A stretch of DNA of 50,756 bases from an uncultured Bdellovibrionales bacterium (GTDB taxonomy: Bacteria; Patescibacteriota; Minisyncoccia; Moranbacterales; UBA1568), in contig CAYLPD010000003.1 in assembly GCA_964385515.1 (NCBI GenBank), positions 1 through 50,756 of the forward strand, in the 5' to 3' direction. How positions within the stretch are numbered: position 1 is the first letter of the stretch; the number at the start of each line of letters is the position of its first letter. Of the stretch, positions 7,497-20,462 are shown piece after piece. The translations under genes were made by a program, and so were the position numbers. The notes below the pieces were generated by a model. It made no database searches, was not told where the DNA came from, and was given only the letters and a program-made list of their open reading frames with translations.

Positions 7497-10105
7497 TACG
7501 CGACAGAAACGCTCCCACTCGCGCTTGTGGTATTTCCGTTTTTATCCTCAAGCGTAACCTTGATATCAAGCGTCGAATTGTTTTGGCTTTCTGGAACTGA
7601 GTAGGTCATCGAAAATGGTTTTTCATTTCGTTCCCCAATCTTATTTCCCCCGACTAAAAAAGTAACTTTAGAGACCCCGTATGGCGCCTCGACACCCGCA
7701 CTCAAGGTGAGAGTATTTGAAGTGATAGAGTTTGGAACATTTAGGCTGATTGAGGGTTGATATTTTTTGAAGTCATCTGCACTACATTCTTTCTTGGGTG
7801 GTTCCTCGGCAATGACATCTTTCTGTTTCTTGTACCATTCCTTCACGGATTTTTCCCAGTTTTTATACTGACTGTCATCTTCTGGATCATCAGGTTTTTC
7901 GCCCCTTGGGTTGGAGCGCTTTACGTAGTGAAGGATATCGTGGGGTTCTACAAAATCTTTTTTCTTTGCTTTTCCATCAGGACAATATTTATTCGCGATA
8001 CAGAATTTGTCTTCGTTGGGAATCTCACAGACCTTTAAATCTTCTTTCGCCTCTAATGTGCCGTCAAGCATTGGTTTATCAAGATCCTCCTTCTCATACT
8101 TTGGAAAGCGTTCCGTCGCGTAGTTGACAAGCGCTTTGTCGAGGAAAGCACGCCAGATGGGAGCTGCGACATTCACACCGTCAGCTCCTGTAACCATGGG
8201 ACTATTGTCATTGTTTCCAGCCCAAACGCCGACAGCGAGAGAGGGTGTGAATCCAATTGTCCAGCCGTCACGAAATTCATTGGTAGTTCCAGTTTTAGCG
8301 GCGACATCACGTTGGTCAAAACGGAGGGGGCTATTTTCTCCAAACACCGGTGCACGAAAACTATTGGTTGACATGATATGTTCAAGCATGGTCACGTATT
8401 TTTCCTCTACAACGCGTTCGCCGGGACCACCCGCGTACTCTTCTAAAGTTGTTCCCTTGGAATCCTCAATCTTCAGGATAGCTGCTAGAGGATGTTTGAC
8501 TCCGCCTGTTGCTAGGGTCGAGAACGCGTGGACATGGTCGAGAAGGTGGACTTCGCCGCCTCCCAAAACGAGTGAGAGTCCAAGGCGATCTGGATTGTCG
8601 AGGCCGACGATGCCAAGGCGCTTGGCCGTATCTATAGCCTCTTTCACACCAACGAGGTAGAGTGTTTTTACCGCGGGGATATTGAGAGATTGGGCAAGTG
8701 ACTCAGCTAGAGATAGCGGCCCACGAAACTTTCCATCGTAATTTTGTGGTTTGTAGCTTTTCCCATCTGCTGTATCAAAGTTAGTTTCGACATCGTATAT
8801 GAGTGTCTCGGGGATGTAGCCTTTGGTAAAGGCGGTTAAATAAACATAGGGCTTAAAAGAGGATCCTGGCTGTCGAGGTGCTGTTGTCACATTGAAGTTG
8901 GCTTCAAAAACACAGGTCTTCCCACTGATACAGTTGGCTGGTTCTGAGGCGCCGAAATAGTCTTTTGAGCCAACCATAGAGAGCAGCTGCCCCGTCTTTG
9001 GATCTATCGCGATGAGGGCTGCATTGGCAGCTTTCCAGCGTTTGTTTTTTTCGGCCCCCGTTCGGACTGCCTCTTCAGCAATCTGCTGTTTATCCCAGTC
9101 GAGAGTGGTTATCACACGATAGCCGCCTTCCTCGACAGCTCGATCACCATATTTTTCTTGAAGATAGTCCTTGATGTACATGACGAAATGCGGTGCCGCA
9201 AAAATATTTTTCTGAGGCATTATCTTTCCAAGCGTATCTGCGTTTATTGCCTCCTCGGCCTGCTCATCGGTGATGTAGCCAAGGCTTGCCATTTGCTTGA
9301 GTGCGTATGTTTGTCGCCCGGAGAGTGCTTCGGTATGAGAACCATAGGGAGAATAGAATGTTGTCGCCTGAGGAAGCGCTGCTAGGAGAGCCGCTTCATC
9401 AAGACCAAGTTCGCGGGCTGGCTTGCCGAAGTATGTTTGAGCAGCTGATTCGATACCGTATGCATTTGACCCATATGGAATTTCGTTCAGATACATCTCG
9501 AGAATCTCGTCCTTTGAATACTTTGTCTCGAGTTCGAGCGCGAGGATAACCTCTTTTATTTTTCGAGCAACCGATTTCTCATTTGTGAGGAGGGTGTTCT
9601 TCACCAATTGCTGAGTGATAGTGGAGCCACCCTGGGATTTGTCGAGGGTAACGATATCCCTCAAAACAGCACGCAGGATGGAAGAGAGTTTGATACCGAA
9701 GTGATGGTAGAAATCCTGATCTTCGAGGGAGATGGTGGCATATTTCACTACCTCAGGCATTTCAGAGAAGGGTATAACGGTGCGTTTTTCCTCGCCGTGC
9801 ACTTCGTACAAGAGGTGGGTGCCAGTACGATCATAAATTTTGGTTGATTCTGCCACAAAACGATCGCTGACATTTCCGGGACTGGGTAAATCCTTTGCAA
9901 TGTAGAGAAAAAGCCCAATGAGTGCAACGAGACCGAAACTACCTGCAACCGCTAACCCAAGCCAAATTTTCTTCCAGGGCCAGGGTTGTTTCGGTTTTGG
10001 GTTCATGCCGACTATTTCAATCGCTGGACGGCGACGAAAGCTCCGGTGGGAAAACAGTGATTTAGGCCTAGAATAAAGCATAAAGTGACTATATGTATGC
10101 CTCAT
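7493..10105 (-). CDS. Class A penicillin-binding protein (glycosyltransferase + transpeptidase, PBP1A-like)
   Basis: It has an N-terminal TM helix, GT51 motifs (EDQDFYHHFG, GGSTITQQL, RKIKE) and the transpeptidase motif SSFKP. There is also a roughly 150-aa C-terminal extension ending in an Ig-like beta-rich segment. The start is uncertain (10105, or the internal ATG at 10006). Confidence 0.9.
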   Translation of the reverse strand: MRHTYSHFMLYSRPKSLFSHRSFRRRPAIEIVGMNPKPKQPWPWKKIWLGLAVAGSFGLVALIGLFLYIAKDLPSPGNVSDRFVAESTKIYDRTGTHLLYEVHGEEKRTVIPFSEMPEVVKYATISLEDQDFYHHFGIKLSSILRAVLRDIVTLDKSQGGSTITQQLVKNTLLTNEKSVARKIKEVILALELETKYSKDEILEMYLNEIPYGSNAYGIESAAQTYFGKPARELGLDEAALLAALPQATTFYSPYGSHTEALSGRQTYALKQMASLGYITDEQAEEAINADTLGKIMPQKNIFAAPHFVMYIKDYLQEKYGDRAVEEGGYRVITTLDWDKQQIAEEAVRTGAEKNKRWKAANAALIAIDPKTGQLLSMVGSKDYFGASEPANCISGKTCVFEANFNVTTAPRQPGSSFKPYVYLTAFTKGYIPETLIYDVETNFDTADGKSYKPQNYDGKFRGPLSLAESLAQSLNIPAVKTLYLVGVKEAIDTAKRLGIVGLDNPDRLGLSLVLGGGEVHLLDHVHAFSTLATGGVKHPLAAILKIEDSKGTTLEEYAGGPGERVVEEKYVTMLEHIMSTNSFRAPVFGENSPLRFDQRDVAAKTGTTNEFRDGWTIGFTPSLAVGVWAGNNDNSPMVTGADGVNVAAPIWRAFLDKALVNYATERFPKYEKEDLDKPMLDGTLEAKEDLKVCEIPNEDKFCIANKYCPDGKAKKKDFVEPHDILHYVKRSNPRGEKPDDPEDDSQYKNWEKSVKEWYKKQKDVIAEEPPKKECSADDFKKYQPSISLNVPNSITSNTLTLSAGVEAPYGVSKVTFLVGGNKIGERNEKPFSMTYSVPESQNNSTLDIKVTLEDKNGNTTSASGSVSVAY

Positions 10106-10142: not shown

Positions 10143-11117
10143 TTAAGTTTGTAAACCAAAGTATTGACGCAGGATCTGTTCTGCAGGATCAAAATACGGA
10201 CGTTTGATCGACCCCTGGTGGAGCGAAAGATCTGGCCCCCCGTTTATCTCGATGATCACGCCGCCAGTTTTGATCAGTGGCAGGTTGATATCTTCGGTGA
10301 TGACATCAATGCCGGCAATATTCAGGTGAATAGCTCTTGTGGCCGCGAGAAAGAGTTCTACATTGATGGGGTGAATACGATCCGTCACGTCTACCGCATG
10401 CCCACCGTGTGAAATCGGCGCCGCACGGTAGAGGTTGATAGTCTCACCGGGCTCTGGGATCATTGAGAACGCGAGACCTTGTTCATTGAGGATACGGACG
10501 AGTTCGGGCTTTATTGGGATAGGCACCGTATTGCTCCCGGGGATAATCGAGTTATTGTGCTGATTGATGAGCAAGAGAATGGTATCACTCCCATTCCCCG
10601 TGAGCGTGGGAGGAATAAATTCAGCCGCCGCTATAATCTGATTTTCAAAAATAAGAATCCGGTACTCTTTACCTCGAATCTTTTTCTCAATGACAACATA
10701 TTGGAATTCTTTCTGAATCGTCTTGAAAGCGTTCCTTGCTTCTTCGATGGTTTGGATAGACGCGTGTACCCCTCTCCCGAGAGTGGAACCGAGTGGTTTC
10801 ATCAAGACATCACCCTGATGTTTGTTGTAAAACGCCTCAAGTTCTGGTAGAGAACTTACGATGAGTTGTTCAGTCGTGGGAATCCCATGGTGTCGAAGAA
10901 TCTCGTTTGTAGTCGCTTTGTCAGCTGCGATCTTCATCCCGATAAATGAAGTGGAAAGGATGGTCGCGCCGAGGGTAAAGAGTTCTCTCTGTCCATCAGA
11001 AATCCGATAAACGGAGCGTCGTTCTGGCGAAGATCCTTTTATCGAGGCGTAGGGTTTGAGACTGAGGCCGAGTCGTTTGGCAGCCTGAGCAAACCCGAAT
11101 TTTTTTGAGTGAGACAT
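10143..11117 (-). CDS. Stand-alone cyanophycin-synthetase-like ATP-grasp (G-domain-like) ligase
   Basis: 324 aa, counted from the ATG at 11117, which is preceded by AGGAG. The track ORF extends to 11228. The order of motifs matches the CphA ATP-grasp region: 'LMKPLGSTLGRGV', 'VIEKKIRGKEYRILIF', 'PPTLTGNGSDTI', 'ISHGGHAVDVTDRIHP', 'AGIDVITEDI', 'IIEINGGPD'. No Mur-ligase-like M domain is attached. Confidence 0.7.
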   Translation of the reverse strand: MSHSKKFGFAQAAKRLGLSLKPYASIKGSSPERRSVYRISDGQRELFTLGATILSTSFIGMKIAADKATTNEILRHHGIPTTEQLIVSSLPELEAFYNKHQGDVLMKPLGSTLGRGVHASIQTIEEARNAFKTIQKEFQYVVIEKKIRGKEYRILIFENQIIAAAEFIPPTLTGNGSDTILLLINQHNNSIIPGSNTVPIPIKPELVRILNEQGLAFSMIPEPGETINLYRAAPISHGGHAVDVTDRIHPINVELFLAATRAIHLNIAGIDVITEDINLPLIKTGGVIIEINGGPDLSLHQGSIKRPYFDPAEQILRQYFGLQT

Positions 11118-11140
11118 AGTTTGGCTCCTGACTAAGGCTG

Positions 11141-11162
11141 AAAAAAGCGCCACACTGGGCGC
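11141..11162 (-). terminator. Intrinsic terminator/attenuator hairpin between the DUF1704 gene and the CphA-like gene
   Basis: On the minus strand the sequence reads GCGCC-cagtgt-GGCGC followed by TTTTTT. It lies about 24 nt upstream of the 11117 start codon. Confidence 0.55.
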
Positions 11163-11254
11163 AAGAGAAAAAGAGCTTTTGACTTTAACGCCGGACGGGA
11201 AAGAGCAACAGCTAATGAGTTGTACCACAGAAACAATAAAGAGTGAAGACTAGA

Positions 11255-12640
11255 CTATTCCTTTTGGAGTGATGCAAGATCGGTGTCAGTAATGCCAAGC
11301 TCATCCAACACCCAGAGATGCCGCGGATTGCTCGGATCGTATTTCCCGATATTCCAGCGTTGCATCTCGGGCTCTTTCCGATGGAGCGTTTCCCAGACAG
11401 CGATATTGCCTTCGCGATAGATGATGTCCTTGGTGAAACAGGCCCCGGGAGTCTTGCAATCGGTCCCGCGAAAGGTGCGGACTGCACGGCCCCAGGCAGT
11501 GTTCGCTGCCTTCTTTTCTGCTTCGGGAGCATCTATTCCGCGCGCGAGGTTTTTGATGAAGTAGTAACGGAACAGGAGATCATAGGTCCCACGGAAATCC
11601 CGGGGATGCCCGTCGAGCCCTGACGCGAGGCTAATCGCGAAGTGTCCGTCAAAGCCCGAGTAGTCGTCAGCTTCGCCCGCGAGCGCCTGTTCCCGGAGCG
11701 TTGCGATGCCTTCTTCGCCACCTTCGTAACGATCAAGTCCGAGGCCGAGCAGGCGGAGTCTGGCCCGCTCGCCATTGAGCCGTCTTGCAGTGTGTGTGCC
11801 AATCTCATGAGCGATCAGACCTTTGAGTTCGACGGTCGGCATTTTCCGGTCCGGAGGAACTTGGACCGCTTTTCTCTCTTGGTTCACGCTGATCCCGGCC
11901 CGTTTCGGATCGATGACCGCGACCCAGCCATCGGCCGATAAGGACTGAAGTGCGGATTCAAACGATGCCCGGATCTCTTCATCAGTCAGTTTTTCAGGAG
12001 CGTCAGGGATATCCAGTATGTCGCCGAGATCACGCTCAGTTTGGCTCTTTACGGCAGGGAGCATCGATTTGTCCGGTCCGCTGATTGCCGAGGCGCCACT
12101 CACGTCGGGGAGATCATTGATGAGGTGGGAGATCTCCTGCTGAATGAGGGGACTCGGGTTTTGATCAGCGATCTGCTTGAGTTCCTGCCGAACTTGCCCC
12201 AGAGTGTATTCAAAGATTTCTTTTGAGGGTTTTCCGTAGATGAATTCTGAGTAGCGCCTGAATCGGCGCATATTGCCAGTCGCCGCCGCGAGGAGCAGGC
12301 GGTTCTCGGCGATCTTCTCGTTGAGTCGCCAGCGGTAGACGTTTTTTACCACTTCATTCTTCTCACTGGCGAGAATCTTTTCTTTCAGGTCGAGTAATTC
12401 GCCATCTTTGGCGAGGAGTGCTCCTTCTTCAAGTCGCGGATAGTCGAGATCGGGATTTTCCTTTCCGTCGGAAAGAAAGGCTTCTTTTTCTTTGGCGCGG
12501 GCAGTGCTATCGCCATCGAGATACTCGTATGCCTGAAAAGCCCCAATTTCTTCAAAACGGGGATACCACCTTCTATCGAGTGCCGACAGTTTGGTAGCGG
12601 ATTCTTTTCTCGGTTTTAGCTTGAGTGGTTGTTCGAACAT
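11255..12640 (-). CDS. DUF1704-family (MATCAP-like) HExxH metallopeptidase
   Basis: 461 aa. It carries 'AHEIGTHTARRLNG' (HExxH, nt 11792-11809) and, about 30 residues later, 'GGEEGIATLREQ' (a QEGLA-like Glu motif, nt 11702-11716). This is the layout I recall for DUF1704 'QEGLA motif' proteins. Confidence 0.65.
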   Translation of the reverse strand: MFEQPLKLKPRKESATKLSALDRRWYPRFEEIGAFQAYEYLDGDSTARAKEKEAFLSDGKENPDLDYPRLEEGALLAKDGELLDLKEKILASEKNEVVKNVYRWRLNEKIAENRLLLAAATGNMRRFRRYSEFIYGKPSKEIFEYTLGQVRQELKQIADQNPSPLIQQEISHLINDLPDVSGASAISGPDKSMLPAVKSQTERDLGDILDIPDAPEKLTDEEIRASFESALQSLSADGWVAVIDPKRAGISVNQERKAVQVPPDRKMPTVELKGLIAHEIGTHTARRLNGERARLRLLGLGLDRYEGGEEGIATLREQALAGEADDYSGFDGHFAISLASGLDGHPRDFRGTYDLLFRYYFIKNLARGIDAPEAEKKAANTAWGRAVRTFRGTDCKTPGACFTKDIIYREGNIAVWETLHRKEPEMQRWNIGKYDPSNPRHLWVLDELGITDTDLASLQKE

Positions 12641-13286
12641 CTCGGACTGAATCAGTAAGATCAGTATAGCGTATCAACTGGAAAGGGCGGATGAGTTTCT
12701 GAAAAGCTCCGCTTCGGAGAAAGGTGAGCTCTCCTTCGCGCTCCTGGTTGTAGGGATAGGTGCAGCGTTTGTCAAAATAGCCGGGATGAGTGACGAGCTC
12801 AGTGACGAGGAACGAACGCGAAGCGAGGAGTCGTTCTATGAGCACAGGGATTCGCTTTGGATGCCAGGAGACAAAGTGGTTTGGAGTGACTATGCCACTG
12901 CACAGTAAATGGGCGCGGTCAGTCGGGAGCCGTGACCGGATGGGAAGACCATAGCGCCGCGCTGCTCGGATGACCCGGTCGATATTGTCTGGTGTGACAT
13001 GCTTGTGCTGGTGTCCATCGAGGTAGGCGGGGAGTCTCCCAAAGCGTTTTTTGAATCGCTTAATTTGCGAAATGATCTCCCGGTAGGAAGATGAGCTTTC
13101 GAGTTCGAGGTGGAGACCGAGAGCAATATCGAGCGCGAGGAGTTCGGTTTTTCGGACATATTTCCGCTTGATCATGACGGAAATCCCGGTAATGATTCCT
13201 GCGCGTGCTACTTCAAGCACGCCTTGGTTGAACCGTGGGGACATCCCGTAGTCATCAGCGGTGATGATGAGTTCAGGACGAGACAT
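12573..13286 (-). CDS. YdjC/ChbG-family (carbohydrate) deacetylase
   Basis: 237 aa from the ATG at 13286, which is 1 nt after the upstream stop codon. The track ORF extends to 13493. The N-terminal 'LIITADDYGMS' metal-binding signature and 'LDGHQHKH' are typical of YdjC-like proteins. Confidence 0.75.
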   Translation of the reverse strand: MSRPELIITADDYGMSPRFNQGVLEVARAGIITGISVMIKRKYVRKTELLALDIALGLHLELESSSSYREIISQIKRFKKRFGRLPAYLDGHQHKHVTPDNIDRVIRAARRYGLPIRSRLPTDRAHLLCSGIVTPNHFVSWHPKRIPVLIERLLASRSFLVTELVTHPGYFDKRCTYPYNQEREGELTFLRSGAFQKLIRPFQLIRYTDLTDSVRDVRTTTQAKTEKRIRYQTVGTR

Positions 13287-13287
13287 C

Positions 13288-15180
13288 TTATTTCTTTTGG
13301 ACGGCGAACTTGAGCGCGCCGATGATCGCCTGGTAAAGTCTCCCAATGTGTGGTCGCTCTGATTCGTCCGGGTAGAGCCCCGGCATAGTATTGAGTTCGA
13401 CAATCCACGGTCGTCCGGTTGGATCAAACATGAGATCGATTGTATAAATCTTTGGCGAGAATTTTTCATAGTGAGACTGAACGGCATGAACAATAGGCCA
13501 GACCGAGTTGGGTATATCCTCTTCCGCGATCATTGTTTGTTTCCCGCCCTGGGCGACATTGGCCAAATAACCTCCGGCCCTTGGCGTGCGGTAATACGCA
13601 TATACTAGCGACTCATTGCAGTAGATGATTCGGAGATCATGGAGCCCTTTCATTACTCCTGGTATACCATTGCTTGAGTCGATGAATTCTTGGACGAGTA
13701 TTGGAAAAGCTACTCGTTCGAGTATTTCGGCCTTCTCAGCGATAAGAATTCCCTCGCCGCTGTTGCCGCGTTCCGGTTTAGCGACAACCAATGTATCCGG
13801 CAGTTGAGCGAGGATATTGATCAGATCCTCTCGAGAAGTGGCTCGGAAATACGGCTTGGCGAATTCTTTGAAGGCGCGACTAACTTGGAGTTTGCTGCCG
13901 GCGTGCAGGGAAAACGCAGGGTGATTGATCATCGGGTAGTGTTTGAGTAGGGCATCCTTGGCGGGTGTTGTCTCGGCGTTTACTGCCGCCTTGTCATAGA
14001 TAACATCAGGAGTAATAGAGTGGGCAAGTGTCCAGTTGTCTCCATCCCAATGCCAGGCCGCCCGAAACATACCGGTTGCCGCATCGTACCAGCGAGTCGA
14101 GCTTCGGTAGAGTGCTACACCTTCGCGGGCTGCGAGCTTAACAAAGTCGGTATATGCTTCACAATAGATGTCTTTTTCGAATGGCACTACCCCGTCATTT
14201 TCTTGGGGTGTAGAGATGATGACGGCAGTAATGGGATCAAGGAAGCGGCGCAGCTCTTCGAGCAATCGAGTATAGACGCGGCGCATTGTGGCATCTTCTT
14301 CGGGTGGAAAGAACATTCCAGGCATCGTGTTAAATTCGATAATCCAGGGGCGACCGGTTTCATCGAACATAACATCGATTGTATAGGTCTTCTGAGGAAA
14401 GCGCGCAAAGAGTGTCCGCGTGTCTTCGATGATGGGGGTAAGTACCTCAGGAAGTTCATCCGTTGGAATGATCCTCATACTGCCGCCCTGTGCGATATTG
14501 GCAAGGAACGACCCGTCCTTTGGTGTTCGGATATACGTGTAGACGAGTTCATCACCGATGAAGACCATACGGAAATCATGGTAGGTGTCAGTGATCCCGG
14601 GTATTCCATGGGAACTGTCGATAAACTCCTGGGTGATAACGGGAAATGTGAGAGTGAGAGATTTCGCTTCTTCTTTCGAAACAATATGAACACCCTGTCC
14701 GCCGCTTCCTACTATAGGTTTTATGACGAGCCGATCGCTGCTAAAGGTCTCTAGAAATTCAGCAAATTCTTTTGAGTCATCAATTTTTCGGTAGGGCTTG
14801 AAGTATTGTGGGAGTTGTCGACTGGTCTCGTACTTGTTGCTAGCAAATAAGGTGAAGGCGGGATCATCCATGAAACGGTAACGGGAAATGATGAGCGCGC
14901 GCGTTTTATCGAGAGCGGAACGTCCGTTGGTCTTATCATAAATAAGATCTGGCCTGACCGGTCCCGAGAGCTGCCACTTCCCCTCGACAAATTCCCAGGA
15001 GTCACGAAAAATATCGCGTTTGGCATCATACCAATCAATCGGTGCTCGGCAGAGATGGAGTCCGTGTGTTTCTCCAAGTGAGTAAAGCATTTCATAGCAG
15101 CGCTGATACTTGGGATCAGAAAACGGAATGTCTGGCCCCGCATTATGCGAAGTGTAGAGAATGAGAACGGTTTTTTTCAT
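13288..15180 (-). CDS. Internally duplicated (tandem) ATP-grasp amidoligase, RimK/YheCD/TTL-like
   Basis: 630 aa made of two homologous halves of about 315 aa each. Both halves carry 'KP..GS/NSG.G', 'QEFIDSS.GIPG', 'AN(I/V)AQGG' and '(I/V)E(F/L)NTMPG'. Confidence 0.75.
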   Translation of the reverse strand: MKKTVLILYTSHNAGPDIPFSDPKYQRCYEMLYSLGETHGLHLCRAPIDWYDAKRDIFRDSWEFVEGKWQLSGPVRPDLIYDKTNGRSALDKTRALIISRYRFMDDPAFTLFASNKYETSRQLPQYFKPYRKIDDSKEFAEFLETFSSDRLVIKPIVGSGGQGVHIVSKEEAKSLTLTFPVITQEFIDSSHGIPGITDTYHDFRMVFIGDELVYTYIRTPKDGSFLANIAQGGSMRIIPTDELPEVLTPIIEDTRTLFARFPQKTYTIDVMFDETGRPWIIEFNTMPGMFFPPEEDATMRRVYTRLLEELRRFLDPITAVIISTPQENDGVVPFEKDIYCEAYTDFVKLAAREGVALYRSSTRWYDAATGMFRAAWHWDGDNWTLAHSITPDVIYDKAAVNAETTPAKDALLKHYPMINHPAFSLHAGSKLQVSRAFKEFAKPYFRATSREDLINILAQLPDTLVVAKPERGNSGEGILIAEKAEILERVAFPILVQEFIDSSNGIPGVMKGLHDLRIIYCNESLVYAYYRTPRAGGYLANVAQGGKQTMIAEEDIPNSVWPIVHAVQSHYEKFSPKIYTIDLMFDPTGRPWIVELNTMPGLYPDESERPHIGRLYQAIIGALKFAVQKK

Positions 15181-15182
15181 GA

Positions 15183-16604
15183 CTATTTCTTACTGACGTC
15201 GACAAGAAACATCCCGAGGTTACGGCGGCCGATGATGGCTCGATACTGGAGTGACGAACGGTCCACCACTGTCGGACTAGCAGAGATCTCTTGACCATCC
15301 ATGACGAGCGTTAGTCCGATTTTCGGTCGCATGCTGACACCGTTTGATGCGTAAACGAAAACAATGTCTTTCAGGTCGGGTATATCCTGGCGCAAATGAG
15401 TTCTTTTTAGAGATTCTCTGAGCTTTTCTCCTGTTTCCTGATTTTCCGGAAATACGGGATTGATTGTATCAAAATACTGGAGTGCTTCCCCAAATCCGAG
15501 TTCCTCGGCAAGCGCTCGATCGATCGCCGAGGAATCCGCTCCCGTGTCGATTTTCGCCTCGATCTCGATTTCCTTGCCGTCTTTGCCAATAAACTTTACT
15601 TTTTCGACAGAGCCGATGACGCGTTTTCCCGAGAGTCCCTCAATGTTTTCTTCAATCTCGCCACCAAACAGATTCATACCAACACGGACGCCGTGATCGA
15701 CACTTTTAATTTTTACACCCTTTACCCGCTCGAGGCGTTCTTTCAAGCCGGCCATATTTGCAAGTTGGATCGAGAGGCCGGGCCGAGCGTTCAGCTCGAG
15801 GATAACCGGGCCAGCGTCACGGTCGATGGCGATATCAGCACCGAGAAATCCGAGCCCAGACACTTCCTGGGCCTTCACGGCCATCGTGAGGATTTCTTTC
15901 CAGCGGGGGATCTTGATACCGGATAACAGGAGACGGGTCTTCGGGGCATATTCGATGATGCGTCCTTTGCCGACGATCGCGCTTGTCGTCGTGCCATTCG
16001 CCATGTCGATACCGACGCCGATTGCGCCCTGATGCAGGTTGGCTTTGCCGCCCGAATCCTGGGTCGGGAGACGCAACATTGCCATCACCGGGACACGATT
16101 GAAGACGATGACACGAATATCAGGAATCCCTTTCCATGTGTAGGGTTTGAAGAGTTTAAGGAGTTTGAGTCGCTCTTCAAAAAAGGCAATATCAGGTTTA
16201 TTGGAAAGCGAAAATGTACCGTCAAGGATATTCTGAACATGGTTTTTCAGGTCAGCAATGGTGATTAAGCTTCCGTCAGCCTTCACCCAAGCATCGTCCC
16301 GACCTTTCTTTTTTGCATACACCACCACTATCCCTTCACCGCCGAATCCGCGATTCGGTTTCAGGGCAAAACTGCTGGGGAGCATTTGCCAATCGAAATT
16401 TTCAAGCGATTCGGAAGAGCTGATTTTTGCAACGAGCTTTGAGACGGGAAGCCCATTTTTTTTCAACGCAACTTTACATTTTAACTTTTGATCCGCAAAG
16501 CGCCGACCTTGGGCATGATTATACCGCCGTACATAGTCGAGGTTGCGGGCATTCATCCCGAGGAGTGTGCGGCTGTGCGCGTACCAGGAAAGCATAGAGG
16601 GCAA
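15183..16604 (-). CDS. Alpha-L-glutamate-ligase-like (RimK-related) ATP-grasp fused to a retropepsin-like aspartic protease domain
   Basis: 473 aa. The N-terminus has 'LGMNARNLDYV', 'LKPNRGFGGEGI', 'ANLHQGA' and 'ILELNARPG'. The C-terminus (residues about 325-473) has 'KIDTGADSS' (DTGA at nt 15537-15548) and 'AIIGRRNL...FLVD', as in the RimB/'ATP-dependent zinc protease' retropepsin-like family. Confidence 0.8.
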   Translation of the reverse strand: MPSMLSWYAHSRTLLGMNARNLDYVRRYNHAQGRRFADQKLKCKVALKKNGLPVSKLVAKISSSESLENFDWQMLPSSFALKPNRGFGGEGIVVVYAKKKGRDDAWVKADGSLITIADLKNHVQNILDGTFSLSNKPDIAFFEERLKLLKLFKPYTWKGIPDIRVIVFNRVPVMAMLRLPTQDSGGKANLHQGAIGVGIDMANGTTTSAIVGKGRIIEYAPKTRLLLSGIKIPRWKEILTMAVKAQEVSGLGFLGADIAIDRDAGPVILELNARPGLSIQLANMAGLKERLERVKGVKIKSVDHGVRVGMNLFGGEIEENIEGLSGKRVIGSVEKVKFIGKDGKEIEIEAKIDTGADSSAIDRALAEELGFGEALQYFDTINPVFPENQETGEKLRESLKRTHLRQDIPDLKDIVFVYASNGVSMRPKIGLTLVMDGQEISASPTVVDRSSLQYRAIIGRRNLGMFLVDVSKK

Positions 16605-16607
16605 ACG

Positions 16608-17267
16608 CTACGGTTTTTGCTTCAAGATATGACGGAAGCGGAAAAGTTCCACGAGCCGCAACCCTGACCACTTGCCAAGACCGATATTGATGAAGAAAGT
16701 TGCAAAAATTGCCCAGGGATACTGGAGGAAGAAATCACGGAGTGCTGGCCACCCGATGGCGAAATAACCGATCATGGAGATGATGAGAGTCTCACCTGCC
16801 AGGATGAGAGCTGTCTTTGCACCTTGTTCTATCTGGGTCGCAATAAACTTTTCAGCCAGAGTGACGAGGATGAGAAGGGGGAAGATATCGACCGCAGCCA
16901 AGCCAGTTCGATGGAGTGTTGCTCCGAGCGCGAGGATGCTGAGTACGGTGAGCGATATAATAGAAAGTGTAATCGCGACGCGGGGCAGATACAGGAGCCG
17001 GAAAGGGCGCAGGAGGTAACGTGAGAGAATGCCCATTCCAATGACGGCAAAGAAGATAGCAATTCCATATTTTAATCCCTTTTCACCAAAGGCGAGGAAT
17101 GCAAAGGTGATGATGGATGGTGTGTAAATTCCAAAGGCCTTGATTCCGACGATCTGCCTGAAAAACGCAACGAGCGTCGCGATAACCGGCAGCATGAGCA
17201 AGAGATACACAGTCTCAACCGGTACGCCGGCAGCAACAAAAAACTGAATAATGGGATGATAGTTCAT
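16608..17267 (-). CDS. 7TM membrane protein (7TM_transglut-like, lacking the transglutaminase module)
   Basis: 219-aa polytopic ORF. 'RQIVGIKAFGIYTPSII' resembles the conserved first-loop motif of the 7TM proteins that partner RimK-like ligases. There is a 3-nt gap to the ligase-protease gene. Confidence 0.6.
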   Translation of the reverse strand: MNYHPIIQFFVAAGVPVETVYLLLMLPVIATLVAFFRQIVGIKAFGIYTPSIITFAFLAFGEKGLKYGIAIFFAVIGMGILSRYLLRPFRLLYLPRVAITLSIISLTVLSILALGATLHRTGLAAVDIFPLLILVTLAEKFIATQIEQGAKTALILAGETLIISMIGYFAIGWPALRDFFLQYPWAIFATFFINIGLGKWSGLRLVELFRFRHILKQKP

Positions 17268-17276: not shown

Positions 17277-17765
17277 TTATACTCTCCGTTTTGCGAATGA
17301 TGCATGATGGATATGGCAGAGTGCGATCGCGAGCGCATCGGCAACATCATCGGGCTTGGGGATTTTGTTGAGATGAAGAATTTCTTTTGCCATACGTTGC
17401 ACCTGTTGCTTGTCAGCCTTGCCGTAGCCAGTGAGCGCCTGTTTCACCTGGAGCGGGGTGTAACCGGCAATACTAAGCCCGAAGTCAGCCAAAGTCAAGA
17501 GGAGAGCACCACGTGATTGGGCGACGGAGATGACCGTTTTCTGGTTGCTGAAGAAAAAAAGTTCTTCGAGGGCGGCTTCGTCGGGTTGATACTGCTTCAC
17601 GATCTCCGCTACGTCATCACGGATTTCTTGGAGTCGTTGCTCAAGCGCGAGATCTTTGCTCGTTGAAATATGCCCGTAGGCGATCGCCGCAGGGTTGCCT
17701 TTTACACTTTCGACGATTGCCCACCCTACTGTCGCGGTGCCAGGATCAATGCCGAGGATACGCAT
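17277..17765 (-). CDS. ruvC: Holliday junction resolvase RuvC
   Basis: 'MRILGIDPGTATVGWAIV' is the canonical RuvC N-terminus. The track ORF (to 17831) adds a 22-aa hydrophobic extension that is unlikely to be real. Confidence 0.9.
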   Translation of the reverse strand: MRILGIDPGTATVGWAIVESVKGNPAAIAYGHISTSKDLALEQRLQEIRDDVAEIVKQYQPDEAALEELFFFSNQKTVISVAQSRGALLLTLADFGLSIAGYTPLQVKQALTGYGKADKQQVQRMAKEILHLNKIPKPDDVADALAIALCHIHHASFAKRRV

Positions 17766-17858
17766 AATTGGAGGAGAATTGAGAACGAAGAAGAGTGAAT
17801 ATAGAATAAGCCGAATACTTTTTCTTGTCATTCCCGCGTAGGCGAGAATCTGGGATAT

Positions 17859-18650
17859 TTATTCGCTACCGACCCCAGTAATTCGGGTGGGGGTATCGTA
17901 CTTGCCTTCGAGGGATTTCCAGAGGAGTTCGAAGGTTTCGGCGAGCGCCTCGGCAAATTTTGGTGATTCGATGATGAGGGTCTGGGCACTCTCGATGAGG
18001 CAGATGCGGACAAACTGGTCACCGCAGGATTCGATCGAACATTTGGCGCTGTAGAGGTCTGCCGGCATAAATTTGGCCGTGATGCTGCCCTTTACCGGTT
18101 CGAGGAATTTCGAGAAGGGATCAAGCGAGGGATTATCGACCGTAAGACCGCGGACTTTTGGCCCGTGTTTGGCCTTGTATTCGTTCCACTCGAGAAAGAC
18201 CTTCATGACTTCCGGCGAGGCATCTTCGGCGGAGGCAAAGAACCCGACGATTTCCTTGTCGTGGAGCTCTTTCTGTTTGTATCGATAGGCCTGGCGCAGC
18301 CCGTCGATCCCTTCGAAATACAGGATACTTGGCTTTTCGGCGGTACTTTTTTGGAACGACTTGAGTTCTGGCAGGATTTGTTTCGCGGCTTTCAACTTTT
18401 CTTCCCGCTCCTCGATGAACGATTCTGGCGATTTGGCGATGTAGCGGCGCTTGTCTTCGCCCGGCACATGGACGATGAGGCCTTTTCCGACCAGCTCCTC
18501 GGCGATCACATAGGCGGTCGGGCGCTTGAGCTCGGCCTTTTTGGCGATCTGATAGGGGGTAGCGGGGCCAAGCTGAAGCAAGGCGAGATAGACTCGCGCC
18601 TCCTTCTCACTCAATCCGAGGTTTTTCAGTGGTTCAACAAGGTGGTCCAT
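17859..18650 (-). CDS. TrmB-family winged-helix transcriptional regulator (paralog 1)
   Basis: It has the N-terminal 'LGLSEKEARVYLALLQLGPATPYQIAKKAELKRPTAYVIAEELVGKGLI' TrmB HTH and a C-terminal sensor-like domain. Confidence 0.75.
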   Translation of the reverse strand: MDHLVEPLKNLGLSEKEARVYLALLQLGPATPYQIAKKAELKRPTAYVIAEELVGKGLIVHVPGEDKRRYIAKSPESFIEEREEKLKAAKQILPELKSFQKSTAEKPSILYFEGIDGLRQAYRYKQKELHDKEIVGFFASAEDASPEVMKVFLEWNEYKAKHGPKVRGLTVDNPSLDPFSKFLEPVKGSITAKFMPADLYSAKCSIESCGDQFVRICLIESAQTLIIESPKFAEALAETFELLWKSLEGKYDTPTRITGVGSE

Positions 18651-18788
18651 ACGCTCAGGATACTCTACTTTGATTATATAGTCAATACTATTGACGACTA
18701 TATATCTTATTTACCATATATTGTTTTATATAAAGCAAATATATGGGTAAAAAGAGGGGCATTGTTGACATATATTTAGACGGTATTA

Positions 18789-18817
18789 TTGACACATTGA
18801 CGATTTTGGAATATACT
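18789..18817 (+). promoter_or_regulatory. Sigma-70-like promoter for the 18925 gene
   Basis: TTGACA (18789-18794), 17-nt spacer, TATACT (18812-18817). Confidence 0.5.
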
Positions 18818-18924
18818 ACGGAGTCAAGTTGAGAGGCAGTAATGCTAAAACAACTTGAATTAGTTCTTTGAGAAATCCGCCACTACTGGCGACCGCACCT
18901 CGGGCACTGGGGTAGGAGACTGCA

Positions 18925-19284
18925 ATGAAAGTCGCGATCAATCACACCGTTGCGCAGTATATGGGTATGCTCGCATCGTGGTACTCACACGAGTGTAGAT
19001 ACTGCCGATCCAAGGAACGGCTCCCTGAGATTCCTAGTGAAATAGAGTGGGAATACAGGGATCACCCACAAGGAGGTGAGGTGCTTCACATACAAGGGAC
19101 AACGAGCGGGAGCTATTGGTTTACCGCAGAGATCTATGAAATAGGTGCTGTACCCGAGCCATACACAGAACTGCTAACAGCAGCTATCACCGACTCGTGG
19201 GGTACAAGAACATACACAAGAGAGGAGGTTCTCGCCATAGCAGGCAAGACCAAATTCCAGTGGATGGGCGCATCGAAGACATAG
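18925..19284 (+). CDS. Hypothetical protein (orphan, 119 aa)
   Basis: The ORF is preceded by 'GGTAGGAG' and by a consensus promoter. I recognise no domain. It is divergent from TrmB paralog 1. Confidence 0.5.
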   Translation: MKVAINHTVAQYMGMLASWYSHECRYCRSKERLPEIPSEIEWEYRDHPQGGEVLHIQGTTSGSYWFTAEIYEIGAVPEPYTELLTAAITDSWGTRTYTREEVLAIAGKTKFQWMGASKT

Positions 19285-19735
19285 ACATCTCTCCACGCTG
19301 AGACCCCAGTCTGACAGCGTGCAACAAATAAATGGGGACGCTCGTAGCGAAGAAAAGTACGGGAACGACAGGGGCATAAGAGACTGAAACCTCTGTCAGC
19401 GCTTCACTGGTAGATCATGCGCACACTACCCGTCCGCCCGAACGTGATCGGTGCCTTGGCGAGTGAGAGTGAACCCACCTCCTCGCCATCTTTATCAGAA
19501 TCATCATAATTATGGTGGTTCCGTAGAGATGAAGTTCTTTTAATTCTGTCTCCCCCTGTGGATTGTATACCGGTCAAGTTCTACTCCATGATTGAACCCT
19601 ATGATGACTGTGAGGGCTAGTGGGATAGGCATGAACAAAACTCCTTTGCGATGCTCTTCCGCGTGTAGATGAGACAGTCTGCTTGAGGCAGGTAAGGTTC
19701 CAAGGCCGACCTGAACAAAGCGCCTTACAGATATA

Positions 19736-19773
19736 CCGGATGATCAGCGTGTCATCCGGCTTTTCTTTTTTCT
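19736..19773 (+). terminator. Rho-independent terminator
   Basis: CCGGATGA-tcagcgtg-TCATCCGG followed by CTTTTCTTTTTTCTC. Confidence 0.75.
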
Positions 19774-19832
19774 CAAAACGAAATCTGACCCAATTCAAAA
19801 TCCCACCGCTTTCCTGCTGTCTATCCCAGCTA

Positions 19833-19864
19833 ATCCCATAAACCACGGCCGTTGTTTATGAGAT
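19833..19864. repeat. 32-bp palindromic element, copy 1
   Basis: ATCCCATAAACCACGG|CCGTTGTTTATGAGAT. The left arm is perfect and the right arm has 2 mismatches to the palindrome consensus. It overlaps the first ATG of the downstream ORF. Confidence 0.85.
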
Positions 19865-20462
19865 GGTATACTTAGGAGGTAGGAGATGCTATACAGAGTT
19901 AATGCTCAAGAAAATTGGTCCAATCCAAGAAAAAATCCTGTTGCTCCTTTTGAGTGGCACTGCCTTAAGTTTTGCTGGAACGCCAGCACAGTCATATCGG
20001 ATTCTGCGTGGTATTCCCAAAGAATGGAAGCGTATTAATCAAACTAATTTGCGCCGATCCTTCCGGATACTCTCCACCCAAAAGCTTCTTGAAGAAGTAA
20101 GGCAGAAAGATGGGACGTTTCTCCTTCGACTCACCGCATCGGGGGAAAATCGGGCTAGATATCAGAATATTTTTGGTAAAAAAATTAAGATACACAAGCC
20201 TCTGCGTTGGGACAAATATTGGCGCATTGTCCTTTTCGATATCCCGGAGAAGAAGCGTCAATTTCGTGATATTTTGCGTGAGCATCTGAAGGCGATCGGC
20301 TTTCGGGAATTGCAGCAGAGTGCCTTCGTCTTCCCTTATCCGTGTGAGAAAGAAATCCGTTGTCTTGTCGATCTGTATAGTGCCGCACCATATGTCCGTA
20401 TCCTCACTGTGAAACATATCGACAATGGGAAAGAACTAGAGAAACGATTCTTTCGAAATTAG
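19863..20462 (+). CDS. PaaX-like regulator: wHTH plus Cas2-like ferredoxin-fold domain
   Basis: 'YWRIVLFDIPEKKRQFRDILREHLKAIGFRELQQSAFVFPYP' follows the Cas2/PaaX beta-alpha-beta pattern (xDIP...R...L...G....Q.SVF). The likely true start is the ATG at 19902 (MLKKIGPIQ...), downstream of 'TAGGAGGTAGGAG'. Confidence 0.6.
   Translation: MVYLGGRRCYTELMLKKIGPIQEKILLLLLSGTALSFAGTPAQSYRILRGIPKEWKRINQTNLRRSFRILSTQKLLEEVRQKDGTFLLRLTASGENRARYQNIFGKKIKIHKPLRWDKYWRIVLFDIPEKKRQFRDILREHLKAIGFRELQQSAFVFPYPCEKEIRCLVDLYSAAPYVRILTVKHIDNGKELEKRFFRN

What the first reader, a model, noticed from the sequence alone, without database searches (positions are those of the whole stretch)
10143..17267. Operon with four ATP-grasp ligase modules, two peptidases, a YdjC deacetylase and a 7TM protein: candidate ribosome-independent peptide-ligation/trimming system
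SEEN IN THE SEQUENCE.
- On the minus strand, directly after ruvC, the ORFs run 17267->16608 (7TM), 16604->15183, 15180->13288, 13286->12573 and 12640->11255. Gaps are 1-3 nt, with one 68-nt overlap.
- After a hairpin plus U6 comes 11117->10143, followed by PBP1A.
- Four independent ATP-grasp cores are visible, each with a Gly-rich KP..G..G.G loop and a terminal E-x-N-x-x-P-G/D site. They are LKPNRGFGGEGI/ILELNARPG, VIKPIVGSGGQGV/IIEFNTMPG, VAKPERGNSGEGI/IVELNTMPG and LMKPLGSTLGRGV/IIEINGGPD.
- Also present are a retropepsin-like DTGA domain, an HExxH DUF1704-type peptidase, a YdjC-type deacetylase (ADDYG) and a 7TM protein.
ESTABLISHED KNOWLEDGE.
- RimK-type ligases add amino-acid tails.
- CphA polymerises Asp/Arg.
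- Comparative genomics (the Iyer/Aravind amidoligase survey) predicted that the triad of RimK-like ligase, retropepsin-like protease and 7TM(-transglutaminase) is a peptide-tagging or peptide-synthesis system. To my knowledge no product has been defined.
INFERENCE.
- This expanded, fused version is a multi-ligase machine. One possibility is that it builds and trims a poly-amino-acid tail or polymer on a membrane or cell-wall acceptor.
- The other possibility is a deacetylate-then-ligate route to an aminosugar-peptide conjugate.
- I know of no characterised system with this composition.
Basis: partly seen in the sequence, partly recalled or inferred. Interest (0 to 1): 0.88.

Follow-up and report, generated by a model that had tools for sequence, protein, structure and literature searches.

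The report
Membrane-linked multi-ligase peptide-building gene cluster
In a tiny uncultured bacterium (Moranbacteria), a conserved pair of genes, a seven-helix membrane protein and a peptide-bond-forming ligase fused to a protease, is followed by a strain-variable set of extra ligases and trimming enzymes, which looks like a ribosome-free peptide-building system whose product is still unknown.

Summary
Six co-directional genes (10143-17267, minus strand) encode:
- a 7TM_transglut membrane protein (A);
- an RloC-type ATP-grasp ligase fused to an RloA/RimB-type retropepsin (B);
- a tandem double ATP-grasp (C);
- a YdjC deacetylase (D);
- a MATCAP/DUF1704 metallocarboxypeptidase (E);
- a free-standing CphA-G-domain-like ATP-grasp (F).

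- **Functional linkage is real.** A and B are adjacent in every one of 80 related loci from the Candidate Phyla Radiation (CPR). Single polypeptides elsewhere fuse the B-type ligase to MATCAP, YdjC, another ATP-grasp or the 7TM.
- **It is not a fixed seven-gene machine.** Only A+B is constant. The genes after B form a hypervariable cassette: 33 gene orders in 56 bounded loci, with 1-4 extra ligase modules.
- **The core is no longer uncharacterised.** It is a fused, transglutaminase-less version of the RloABC system, studied genetically in Pseudomonas aeruginosa in 2025.

Best reading: a membrane-coupled, ATP-dependent system that extends a carboxylate with amino acids, probably acidic ones, and trims the product with its own peptidases. 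C and D probably form a sugar-amine side branch. The product and acceptor are unknown.

Novelty: new variant of a known kind. Interest: moderate to high.

The parts
16608..17267 (-). A: seven-helix membrane protein of the 7TM_transglut family, without the transglutaminase-like domain. Predicted N-terminus outside and C-terminus inside, with conserved basic residues on the cytoplasmic loops and tail.
   Evidence: PF14402 at 100 bits, E = 2e-28. It matches the C-terminal part (313-507) of the NCBIfam RloB model. The AF2 model has pLDDT 82.9 and is all-helical. No solved fold relative was found; the best Foldseek E-value is 0.27. It lies next to B in all 80 loci.
15183..16604 (-). B: fusion of an RloC-type ATP-grasp ligase and a retropepsin. 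The probable true start is the ATG at 16595.
   Evidence: Homologues of 464-475 aa at 64-99% identity show that the fusion is conserved.
15717..16574 (-). B, ATP-grasp domain (residues 11-296). Motifs LKPNRGFGGEGI and ILELNARPG.
   Evidence: PF14397 E = 4.6e-68; TIGR02291 at 287 bits against a cut-off of 314. The best Foldseek matches are ArgX, LysX, RimK, PsnB and Ddl.
15189..15626 (-). B, retropepsin-like domain (residues 327-472). Catalytic DTGA at 353-356. K351, R426 and R449 align with the polyglutamate-binding K46, R114 and R137 of RloA.
   Evidence: A profile of the domain hits the RloA structures 9G58 and 9G59 (E = 5e-10 and 5e-9), then 2PMA, Ddi1 and ApRick. DTG is invariant in 75 loci. 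pLDDT is 84-93. The residue roles come from PMC12239564.
14233..15180 (-). C, ligase module 1 (residues 1-316). Motifs VIKPIVGSGGQGV and IIEFNTMPG.
   Evidence: RimK, YheCD, TTL and GshB hits. The two halves of C are 35% identical. A profile of the module hits RimK structures at 1.7e-11, then LysX, GshB and TTLL6/7.
13288..14232 (-). C, ligase module 2 (residues 317-630). Motifs VAKPERGNSGEGI and IVELNTMPG.
   Evidence: Same calls as module 1. In 30 other loci this module is a single ~318-aa gene.
12573..13286 (-). D: YdjC-family carbohydrate deacetylase (motif ITADDYG). Its 3' end overlaps the start of E by 68 nt.
   Evidence: PF04794 E = 3e-34; chitin disaccharide deacetylase model E = 3e-21. 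It is present in 11 of 76 loci, always together with the C-type module. It is fused to a B-type protein in P0122.
11255..12640 (-). E: MATCAP/DUF1704-family zinc carboxypeptidase. Motifs HEIGTH, EEG and CFTKD.IY are present.
   Evidence: PF08014 at 73 bits against a cut-off of 27. The active-site motifs align with human MATCAP, 7Z5G. A MATCAP-class gene is present in 11 of 76 loci (9 clear matches plus 2 copies of a 629-aa HExxxH protein that Pfam does not call). MATCAP is fused to the B-type ligase in 44 of 45 long representatives.
11141..11162 (-). GC-rich hairpin plus T6 in the 138-nt gap between E and F. It lies downstream of a TGTGGTAcAAC box that resembles a promoter -10 element and upstream of an AGGAG ribosome-binding site.
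   Evidence: The whole ~150-nt region upstream of F is conserved in L005, and also in L001 where E is absent. No Rfam family matches.
10143..11117 (-). F: free-standing ATP-grasp ligase resembling the G domain of cyanophycin synthetase. Motifs LMKPLGSTLGRGV and IIEINGGPD. It has no N or M domain.
   Evidence: NCBIfam cyanophycin synthetase E = 7e-65, covering model positions 183-453 only. phmmer hits CphA1 7WAC residues 208-462 at 1.5e-39. It is the commonest accessory gene, present in 36 of 76 loci.

Best explanation
This is a CPR (Moranbacteria) version of the Rlo/Rim type of ATP-grasp peptide-ligation system. It is built as a constant core plus a variable cassette.

**Core (shown by homology, gene order and fusions)**
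- The 7TM protein A sits in the membrane with its basic C-terminal tail in the cytoplasm.
- There it partners protein B.
- B's ATP-grasp domain is expected to activate a carboxylate as an acyl-phosphate and add amino acids to it one at a time. This follows from the family chemistry of RimK, LysX and GshB. The residues are most likely glutamate or other acidic ones.
- B's fused retropepsin domain is expected to cut runs of acidic residues, and so to limit or recycle the product. It keeps the catalytic DTG and three of the four basic residues that RloA is modelled to use pseudo-symmetrically on polyglutamate. Two of these, R114 and R137, are the ones whose mutation most impairs RloA.

**Cassette (inferred)**
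- In this genome three more ligase modules (the two in C, and F) add further residues.
- E removes C-terminal residues.
- D makes a free amine on an N-acetyl-hexosamine. That amine could serve as an acceptor or attachment point for the C-type ligase.

The cassette differs between close relatives, so the product is expected to differ between strains. That pattern fits an envelope-exposed or exported molecule better than a housekeeping modification.

**Not known:** the identity of the acceptor (protein C-terminus, free amino acid, glycan or lipid), the residues added, and the role of A (export, anchoring or regulation).
For: **Domain identities.**

**Constant core.** A and B are adjacent in all 80 loci, with B identity ranging from 43% to 88%. 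These loci span record titles naming Moranbacteria, Saccharibacteria, Doudnabacteria, Dojkabacteria and Woesebacteria.

**Extra ligases.** At least one further ligase directly follows B in 74 of 76 loci. All 56 bounded loci have 1-4 extra modules.

**Fusions.**
- ATPgrasp_ST with MATCAP in 44 of 45 long cluster representatives.
- Fusions with YdjC (P0122) and with a second ATP-grasp (P0146).
- 7TM fused N-terminally to the ligase (P0248, P0264), which fits a C-terminus-inside topology.

**Evidence that the peptidases act on the ligase product.** In the MATCAP fusions the retropepsin-like middle domain has usually lost DTG (39 of 45). This suggests that the two peptidases do the same job.

**Acidic substrate.** B's K351, R426 and R449 align with RloA K46, R114 and R137. 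Alanine substitutions at the coordinating residues reduce polyE cleavage, and R114A and R137A have the strongest effect.

**Genetics in P. aeruginosa.** Loss of the RloA proteases is toxic, and deleting rloB or rloC rescues it. This implies a product made by the ligase and membrane protein that must be cleaved.

**Variability.** There are 33 gene orders in 56 bounded loci. Only 21% of locus pairs with a B protein at least 85% identical share a cassette.

**Sugar link.** YdjC or GT4 genes occur only with the C-type module, in 15 of 15 loci (p = 1.6e-5, not corrected for phylogeny).
Against: - No substrate, acceptor or product can be read from the sequence.
- B scores below the NCBIfam cut-off for TIGR02291 (287 against 314 bits), so its specificity may differ from that of RloC.
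- The fused protease has no signal peptide, so it is cytoplasmic. RloA is secreted. The logic of export followed by cleavage may therefore not carry over.
- A has no solved structural relative and nothing shows that it transports anything.
- ruvC and PBP1A are as tightly spaced as the system's own genes, so spacing alone does not define the transcript.
- A terminator-like hairpin separates F from the rest.
- The association statistics ignore shared ancestry.
Confidence: 0.6

Rival explanations
1. Protein tailing. The ligases add a C-terminal amino-acid tail to one specific protein, and the two peptidases remove it. Precedents are RimK/RimB on ribosomal protein S6 and TTL/MATCAP on tubulin. The system would be a reversible post-translational switch, with A as the target or as a sensor.
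For: - The closest solved relatives of the ligases (RimK, LysX, ArgX, TTLL) all act on protein C-termini or carrier proteins.
- MATCAP is a protein C-terminal carboxypeptidase.
- RimB trims glutamate tails from RpsF.
- The ligase-peptidase fusions fit a write-and-erase pair.
Against: - No candidate acceptor gene is conserved in the locus.
- The C-terminus of A is basic, not acidic.
- A single protein target does not explain why 1-4 different extra ligases turn over between close relatives.
- It also does not explain why sugar enzymes (YdjC, GT4) join the cassette.
Confidence: 0.2
2. Aminosugar-peptide or glycopolymer decoration. A GlcNAc-bearing molecule (lipid, glycan or small metabolite) is deacetylated by D. 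The C-type ligase then acylates the free amine with an amino acid or peptide. This follows the logic of mycothiol and bacillithiol synthesis: GT4 transferase, then deacetylase, then ligase. A handles the membrane step.
For: - YdjC or GT4 genes occur only with the C-type module (15 of 15 loci). One locus (L035) has module, GT4 and YdjC together.
- YdjC is fused to a B-type protein in P0122.
- The GT4 shows weak similarity to MshA, BshA and the GlcNAc-phosphatidylglycerol synthase.
- Pfam describes PF14397 as 'Sugar-transfer associated ATP-grasp'.
Against: - Most loci (61 of 76) have no sugar enzyme, so this can be only a branch of the system and not its core function.
- The GT4 hits are far below their cut-offs.
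- No nucleotide-sugar genes lie in the window's cluster.
- The known relatives of these ligases join amino-acid amines to carboxylates, not sugar amines.
Confidence: 0.12
3. Cytoplasmic polymer for storage or osmotic buffering. The ligases polymerise free amino acids (glutamate or aspartate) into a cyanophycin-like or polyglutamate-like polymer. The peptidases release the monomers again. A would act as a membrane-stress sensor.
For: - F resembles the CphA G domain.
- Other loci carry a free-standing protein resembling the CphA M domain (E = 8.6e-56).
- RimK makes free poly-alpha-glutamate.
- The Rlo phenotypes in P. aeruginosa are hypo-osmotic (PMC12239564).
- The fused protease is cytoplasmic.
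Against: - The window has no M-domain-like gene and F lacks the N domain of CphA, so this is not cyanophycin synthetase.
- A bulk storage polymer does not need a strain-variable set of ligases.
- It gives no role to D.
Confidence: 0.06
4. No system. The genes are unrelated enzymes that merely sit in one co-directional gene string between ruvC and PBP1A.
For: - ruvC and PBP1A are spaced as tightly as the other genes.
- C-F are individually dispensable across relatives.
Against: - A+B plus ligases persist in distant CPR lineages where ruvC or PBP1A are not adjacent.
- Many independent domain fusions join the parts.
Confidence: 0.02

Closest known systems
RloABC operon of Pseudomonas aeruginosa (Lormand et al. 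2025, PMC12239564). From memory, this is the ATP-grasp / 7TM-transglutaminase / retropepsin triad predicted in the Iyer-Aravind 2009 amidoligase survey; that paper could not be read here.
   Same: - The same three families: PF14397/TIGR02291 ligase, PF14402 7TM and PF05618 retropepsin.
- The basic residues that RloA uses on polyglutamate are kept.
- The product is unknown in both.
   Different: - The protease is fused to the ligase and has no signal peptide, so it is cytoplasmic rather than secreted.
- The 7TM protein lacks the periplasmic inactive-transglutaminase domain.
- One to four extra amide ligases and optional MATCAP, YdjC or GT4 genes follow.
- The host is a CPR bacterium, whereas RloB was reported as 96% proteobacterial.
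RimK/RimB (with RimA) modification of ribosomal protein S6
   Same: - A cytoplasmic ATP-grasp ligase is paired with a cytoplasmic retropepsin-like protease that trims the ligase's polyglutamate product.
- RimK structures are the nearest solved relatives of the C module. True RimK-family genes occur in 30 related cassettes.
   Different: - B and C score far below the RimK family cut-off (45 and 72 bits against 143).
- A membrane partner is obligatory here.
- There is no link to rpsF.
Tubulin tyrosine ligase / MATCAP tyrosination cycle of eukaryotes
   Same: An ATP-grasp ligase that adds a C-terminal residue is paired with a MATCAP-family HExxxH zinc carboxypeptidase that removes it. In many CPR proteins both are in one polypeptide.
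   Different: - The setting is bacterial and there is no tubulin.
- E matches only part of the MATCAP profile.
- The substrate is unknown.
Cyanophycin synthetase CphA1
   Same: F is about 40% identical to the G (ATP-grasp) domain, which extends a peptide backbone at its C-terminus. Other loci carry a separate protein resembling the M domain.
   Different: F is a 324-aa free-standing protein without the N or M domains. It scores 219 bits against a cut-off of 877.
Stepwise peptide assembly by free-standing ligases: Mur ligases plus Ddl in peptidoglycan, the pseudomurein peptide ligases, and GshA/GshB
   Same: Several single-step ATP-dependent amide ligases are encoded together, and each presumably adds one residue type.
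   Different: The ligase families and gene content differ. Built-in peptidases and a dedicated 7TM partner are present. The cassette varies between strains.

Membership tests
Rlo-type system (RloA/RloB/RloC) | ATP-grasp ligase of the RloC type (PF14397 / TIGR02291) | tested here: met
   PF14397 scores 229.9 bits against a cut-off of 31.4. TIGR02291 gives E = 1.4e-85 but 287 bits, just under its 314-bit equivalog cut-off. The domain is therefore family-level and not a strict equivalog.
Rlo-type system (RloA/RloB/RloC) | 7TM_transglut membrane protein encoded next to the ligase | tested here: met
   PF14402 scores 100 bits against a cut-off of 25. It is adjacent to B in all 80 loci.
Rlo-type system (RloA/RloB/RloC) | Inactive transglutaminase domain on the 7TM protein | tested here: not met
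   A is 219 aa and matches only positions 313-507 of the RloB model. Some CPR relatives instead carry other N-terminal extensions, for example PKD in L081.
Rlo-type system (RloA/RloB/RloC) | Retropepsin-like aspartic protease with DTG and basic substrate-channel residues | tested here: met
   The domain profile hits RloA structures 9G58 and 9G59 at 5e-10 and 5e-9. DTG is invariant. K351, R426 and R449 align with K46, R114 and R137.
Rlo-type system (RloA/RloB/RloC) | Protease is secreted (N-terminal signal peptide) | tested here: not met
   The protease is the C-terminal domain of a 473-aa protein whose N-terminal domain is a soluble ATP-grasp ligase. It has no signal peptide of its own.
RimK family alpha-L-glutamate ligases | Score above the TIGR00768 family cut-off | tested here: not met
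   B scores 44.8, C 71.7 and F 39 bits against a cut-off of 143.4. A different accessory gene class in other loci does pass, at 155 bits.
Cyanophycin synthetase | N domain, G (ATP-grasp) domain and M (Mur-ligase-like) domain in one protein | tested here: not met
   F covers model positions 183-453 only and scores 219.7 bits against a cut-off of 877.
MATCAP / DUF1704 metallocarboxypeptidases (PF08014) | Pfam score above cut-off, with the HExxxH and downstream Glu zinc site | tested here: met
   E scores 73.4 bits against a cut-off of 27. HEIGTH, EEG and CF(T/S)KD.IY align with human MATCAP 7Z5G. Carboxypeptidase activity was not tested.
YdjC carbohydrate deacetylases (PF04794) | Pfam score above cut-off, with the N-terminal metal-binding Asp-Asp motif | tested here: met
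   D scores 119.4 bits against a cut-off of 29.7 and carries ITADDYG at residues 8-14. The substrate is unknown.
Graspetide (ATP-grasp RiPP) clusters | A precursor-peptide gene next to the ATP-grasp maturase | tested here: not met
   The only intergenic gap is 138 nt and holds a hairpin. No credible small ORF is present. Maturase models do not match the window proteins.
Known anti-phage defence systems | Match to a PADLOC model | tested here: not met
   None of the six proteins gives a hit.

The most novel reading that the evidence does not exclude
CPR bacteria carry a previously undescribed, membrane-coupled, ribosome-independent peptide assembly line. It is built from free-standing ATP-grasp and Mur-type ligases. 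Its strain-variable cassette specifies a variable acidic peptide or glycopeptide displayed on, or exported through, the envelope. In effect this would be a hypervariable surface peptide code, comparable in role to O-antigen or teichoic-acid diversity, with built-in editing peptidases.
Probability: 0.25. Interest if true: 0.85.

Novelty: new variant of a known kind. Interest (0 to 1): 0.64.

Why it matters
- **A simpler form of the Rlo system.** The product of the Rlo-type ligase, 7TM and retropepsin system is an open question. In Pseudomonas the system affects osmotic tolerance, antibiotic sensitivity, biofilm and cell shape. The CPR version gives a stripped-down, fused form in very small genomes. 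It also comes with natural fusions that say which enzymes work together, and with natural cassette variants that could be compared by mass spectrometry.
- **Wider distribution.** It extends this system well beyond Proteobacteria.
- **A bacterial parallel to a eukaryotic cycle.** Bacterial MATCAP relatives are physically fused to ATP-grasp ligases. This parallels the eukaryotic tubulin ligase / carboxypeptidase cycle and may be its ancestor.
- **Biology of uncultured symbionts.** If the product sits in the envelope, the strain-level variability would bear on how these bacteria interact with hosts and phages.

Tried and rejected
- **Fold search of the A model against the PDB.** No significant match. 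The best E-value was 0.27, with a weak resemblance to NqrD/E and RnfA/E subunits. The fold gives no transport or enzymatic assignment.
- **Fold search of full-length B.** It returned only ATP-grasp hits. The protease domain was therefore tested with a sequence profile instead.
- **phmmer of B against the PDB.** No hit.
- **Rfam scan of the whole window.** No family matched, so the F leader and hairpin are not a known riboswitch. Alignment folding of the leader kept the hairpin but showed no covariation with three sequences.
- **PADLOC scan.** No defence-system match.
- **Search for a precursor peptide or small ORF in the cluster.** None found. A graspetide/RiPP reading is rejected.
- **The Iyer-Aravind 2009 paper.** It could not be read by DOI or PMC id. 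What is said about it rests on memory and on citing papers.
- **A Klebsiella ATP-grasp paper (CfmP).** It concerns a different, TupA-like family and is not relevant.
- **Cyanophycin synthetase, RimK proper and poly-gamma-glutamate synthesis.** Rejected as memberships on domain content and score cut-offs.
- **Third homologous-protein search.** Left unused.

Full report
**Observation**

The minus strand of the window carries a tight string of genes:

| Gene | Coordinates | Length |
|---|---|---|
| ruvC | 17277-17831 | 184 aa |
| A | 16608-17267 | 219 aa |
| B | 15183-16604 | 473 aa |
| C | 13288-15180 | 630 aa |
| D | 12573-13286 | 237 aa |
| E | 11255-12640 | 461 aa |
| F | 10143-11117 | 324 aa |
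| PBP1A | 7493-10105 | 870 aa |

- The A-B, B-C and C-D gaps are 3, 2 and 1 nt. D and E overlap by 68 nt in different frames.
- B has an in-frame ATG at 16595. That start would give the 470 aa seen in its 99%-identical homologue P0001.
- The 138-nt E-F spacer holds GCGCCCAGTGTGGCGC followed by T6. An AGGAG lies 8 nt before the ATG of F.

**Domain identities**

- **A.** It matches Pfam 7TM_transglut at E = 2e-28. It covers only the C-terminal 7TM part of the NCBIfam RloB model.
- **B, N-terminal two-thirds.** ATPgrasp_ST at E = 4.6e-68, and TIGR02291 'alpha-L-glutamate ligase-like' at E = 1.4e-85. The TIGR02291 score is 287 bits against a cut-off of 314.
- **B, C-terminal third.** Pfam gives only borderline hits. 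A profile built from 24 diverse copies hits the RloA crystal structures 9G58 and 9G59 at 5e-10 and 5e-9, followed by 2PMA, Ddi1 and ApRick. The PDB codes are identified.
- **B, catalytic residues.** DTG is invariant in 75 loci. The AF2 model of this domain is confident, at pLDDT 84-93. The 293-328 linker is disordered.
- **B, substrate-binding residues.** K351, R426 and R449 align with RloA K46, R114 and R137. In RloA these contact a modelled octaglutamate. Alanine substitutions at the coordinating residues reduce cleavage, R114A and R137A most strongly, and those two mutants fail to complement.
- **C.** It is a tandem duplication of a ~315-aa ATP-grasp module. The halves are 35% identical, E = 6e-77. 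The nearest solved relatives of the module are RimK (1.7e-11), LysX and GshB, with TTLL6/7 more weakly.
- **D.** A YdjC deacetylase with the ADDYG motif.
- **E.** A MATCAP/DUF1704 member. Its HEIGTH (HExxxH), EEG and CFTKD.IY motifs align with human MATCAP.
- **F.** About 40% identical to the G domain of cyanophycin synthetase, and to nothing else in that enzyme.

All four ATP-grasp modules keep the lysine/glycine loop and the E-x-N metal site.

**Organism and context**

- The best hits to A and B are annotated Candidatus Moranbacteria/Moraniibacteriota.
- The window also carries yidC, dnaA and dnaN, together with a GC-skew sign change. It therefore lies next to the replication origin of a CPR chromosome.

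**Is it one system?**

Eighty loci encoding a B relative were fetched from species-representative genomes. B identity ranges from 43% to 88%. By record title they run from Moranbacteria out to Saccharibacteria, Doudnabacteria, Dojkabacteria and Woesebacteria.

- A directly precedes B in every locus.
- At least one additional amide ligase directly follows B in 74 of the 76 loci with at least 1 kb downstream.

Gene content after B is highly variable. Counts are out of 76 loci:

| Accessory gene class | Loci |
|---|---|
| F-type ligase | 36 |
| Single C-type module | 30 |
| Double C-type module | 10 |
| True RimK-family ligase | 30 |
| RimK fused to DUF3541 | 8 |
| Free-standing CphA-M-domain-like ligase | 5 |
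| ATP-grasp_3 protein | 4 |
| YdjC | 11 |
| MATCAP-like peptidase | 9-11 |
| GT4 glycosyltransferase | 5 |

- The 56 loci bounded by PBP1A contain 33 different gene orders, with 1-4 extra ligase modules each.
- Only 21% of locus pairs whose B proteins are at least 85% identical share a cassette.
- Only L005 repeats the window's C-D-E-F set.
- Relatives at 82-88% B identity show C-D-F, C-D, C-D-E, module-GT4-F, or module-D-(E fragment)-F.

The seven genes are therefore not a fixed operon. They are a constant two-gene core with a fast-changing accessory cassette.

**Fusions**

An exhaustive search of 1.84 billion cluster representatives with B found 433 clusters at E <= 1e-30. The architectures found:

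- ATPgrasp_ST-retropepsin-MATCAP. Forty-four of the 45 long representatives scanned carry both ATPgrasp_ST and MATCAP.
- ATPgrasp_ST-retropepsin-YdjC (P0122).
- ATPgrasp_ST-retropepsin-ATP-grasp_3 (P0146).
- 7TM-ATPgrasp_ST (P0248, P0264).

One MATCAP fusion sits in a locus reading YebC, RuvC, PKD-7TM, fusion protein, with no further ligase (L081).

In 39 of the 45 long proteins (44 of them MATCAP fusions) the middle retropepsin-like domain has lost DTG. This is what is expected if MATCAP takes over the same trimming job. These fusions are the strongest evidence that ligase, peptidases, deacetylase and 7TM protein act in one pathway.

**What is known about the relatives**

The facts below come from PMC12239564.

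- In P. aeruginosa, RloA proteases are secreted retropepsins that cleave runs of eight or more glutamates in vitro.
- Loss of all three RloA proteases causes hypo-osmotic death, cell-shape defects and antibiotic sensitivity.
- Deleting rloB (7TM plus inactive transglutaminase) or rloC (ATP-grasp) rescues these defects fully for hypo-osmotic growth and partly for the others.
- The authors state that the physiological substrate is unknown.

RimB, the cytoplasmic paralogue, trims the glutamate tails that RimK adds to S6. The window's core combines RloC-type and RloB-type proteins with a RimB-like cytoplasmic placement of the protease.

**Mechanism proposed**

- *Shown by homology.* There are four acyl-phosphate-forming amide ligase modules, one aspartic endopeptidase with an acidic-peptide-type channel, one zinc carboxypeptidase, one sugar deacetylase and one 7TM protein.
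- *Inferred for the core.* B extends a carboxylate with acidic residues and limits the chain length itself.
- *Inferred for the cassette.* C and F add further residues. E edits the C-terminus. D supplies or unmasks a hexosamine amine.
- *Support for the sugar branch.* YdjC or GT4 genes are seen only with the C-type module (15 of 15 loci, Fisher p = 1.6e-5, uncorrected for phylogeny) and never with RimK-type genes.
- *Topology of A.* My reading of the positive-inside pattern in A gives N-terminus outside and C-terminus inside. Its conserved arginines and lysines then fall on the cytoplasmic face. This fits the N-terminal extracytoplasmic domains of relatives (transglutaminase-like, PKD) and the 7TM-ligase fusions.
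- *Role of A.* Whether A exports, anchors or regulates is not known. Its model (pLDDT 83) has no solved structural relative.
- *Meaning of the variability.* Strain-level cassette turnover argues for a product under diversifying pressure, such as an envelope or exported molecule. This is an inference.

**Rivals**

- *Reversible protein tailing.* This is the main alternative. It fits the enzymology but explains neither the variable ligase sets nor the sugar enzymes.
- *Aminosugar-peptide conjugate.* This route can be only a branch, because 61 of 76 loci lack sugar enzymes.
- *Cytoplasmic storage or osmotic polymer.* F and the M-domain-like genes elsewhere hint at this, but it does not need variable ligases.
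- *Chance juxtaposition.* The fusions exclude it.

**Comparison and novelty**

The system works like Rlo/Rim. It is a family-level member for three of the five Rlo features. It fails the other two: the transglutaminase domain and the secreted protease. It is not cyanophycin synthetase, not RimK proper, not a graspetide cluster (no precursor ORF) and not a listed defence system.

I found no paper describing the CPR form, the variable cassette or the ligase-MATCAP fusions. The 2009 survey that first predicted the triad could not be read.

I rate it a new variant of a known kind, with interest 0.64. However, the core already has a named and genetically studied relative, and the product remains undetermined.

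Noticed in passing
window 2894-7145: yidC (2894-3652, minus), dnaA (4361-5803, plus) and dnaN (6015-7145, plus), with a GC-skew sign change near 4-6 kb. The window spans the chromosomal replication origin region.
   Followed up: partly
window 11118-11255 (minus strand); L005 15340-15525; L001 13940-14125: The ~150 nt upstream of F is conserved wherever F occurs among close relatives, including L001, where E is missing and D precedes it. It contains a TGTGGTAcAAC box resembling a promoter -10 element, a pyrimidine-rich leader and the hairpin plus T6. F seems to travel with its own promoter and a possible attenuator. No Rfam match and no covariation with three sequences.
   Followed up: partly
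proteins P0132, P0145 and 42 other cluster representatives; locus L081 4990-7377: Single polypeptides of about 750-920 aa join an RloC-type ATP-grasp ligase, a retropepsin-like domain that has mostly lost DTG, and a MATCAP-family carboxypeptidase. This is a bacterial ligase / carboxypeptidase pairing that mirrors the eukaryotic TTL / MATCAP cycle. I found no mention of it in the searchable literature.
   Followed up: partly
window 15648-15671 (B residues 312-319): An LFGGEIEE motif is at least 90% conserved at most positions across CPR phyla. It lies in the linker that AlphaFold predicts as disordered, just before the retropepsin domain. It could be an autoprocessing or docking site. Stand-alone RloC-like proteins keep only the 'LF' part.
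   Followed up: no
L068, L070, L071, L073, L075 (A homologues of 500-563 aa); L081 3436-4980: In some CPR lineages the 7TM protein carries a long N-terminal, presumably extracytoplasmic, extension. It is PKD domains in L081. This takes the place of the transglutaminase-like domain of proteobacterial RloB. The outer domain is interchangeable while the 7TM part is constant.
   Followed up: partly
L006 13093-13815: A 240-aa fragment of the MATCAP-like gene remains between YdjC and the F-type ligase. This looks like gene decay caught in progress within the variable cassette.
   Followed up: no
L016, L018-L020, L028, L031, L040, L052, L056, L060, L062: DUF3541, alone or fused C-terminally to a RimK-family ligase, recurs in the cassettes (11 of 76 loci). 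It avoids the C-type module (p = 0.002). Its function is unknown.
   Followed up: no
window 17859-21374: In other CPR loci YebC sits directly upstream of RuvC (L081). Here YebC (20589-21374) is separated from ruvC by a TrmB-family regulator (17859-18650), a PaaX-like protein on the opposite strand (19863-20462) and a 119-aa ORF with no family match (18925-19284). This suggests an insertion between them.
   Followed up: no
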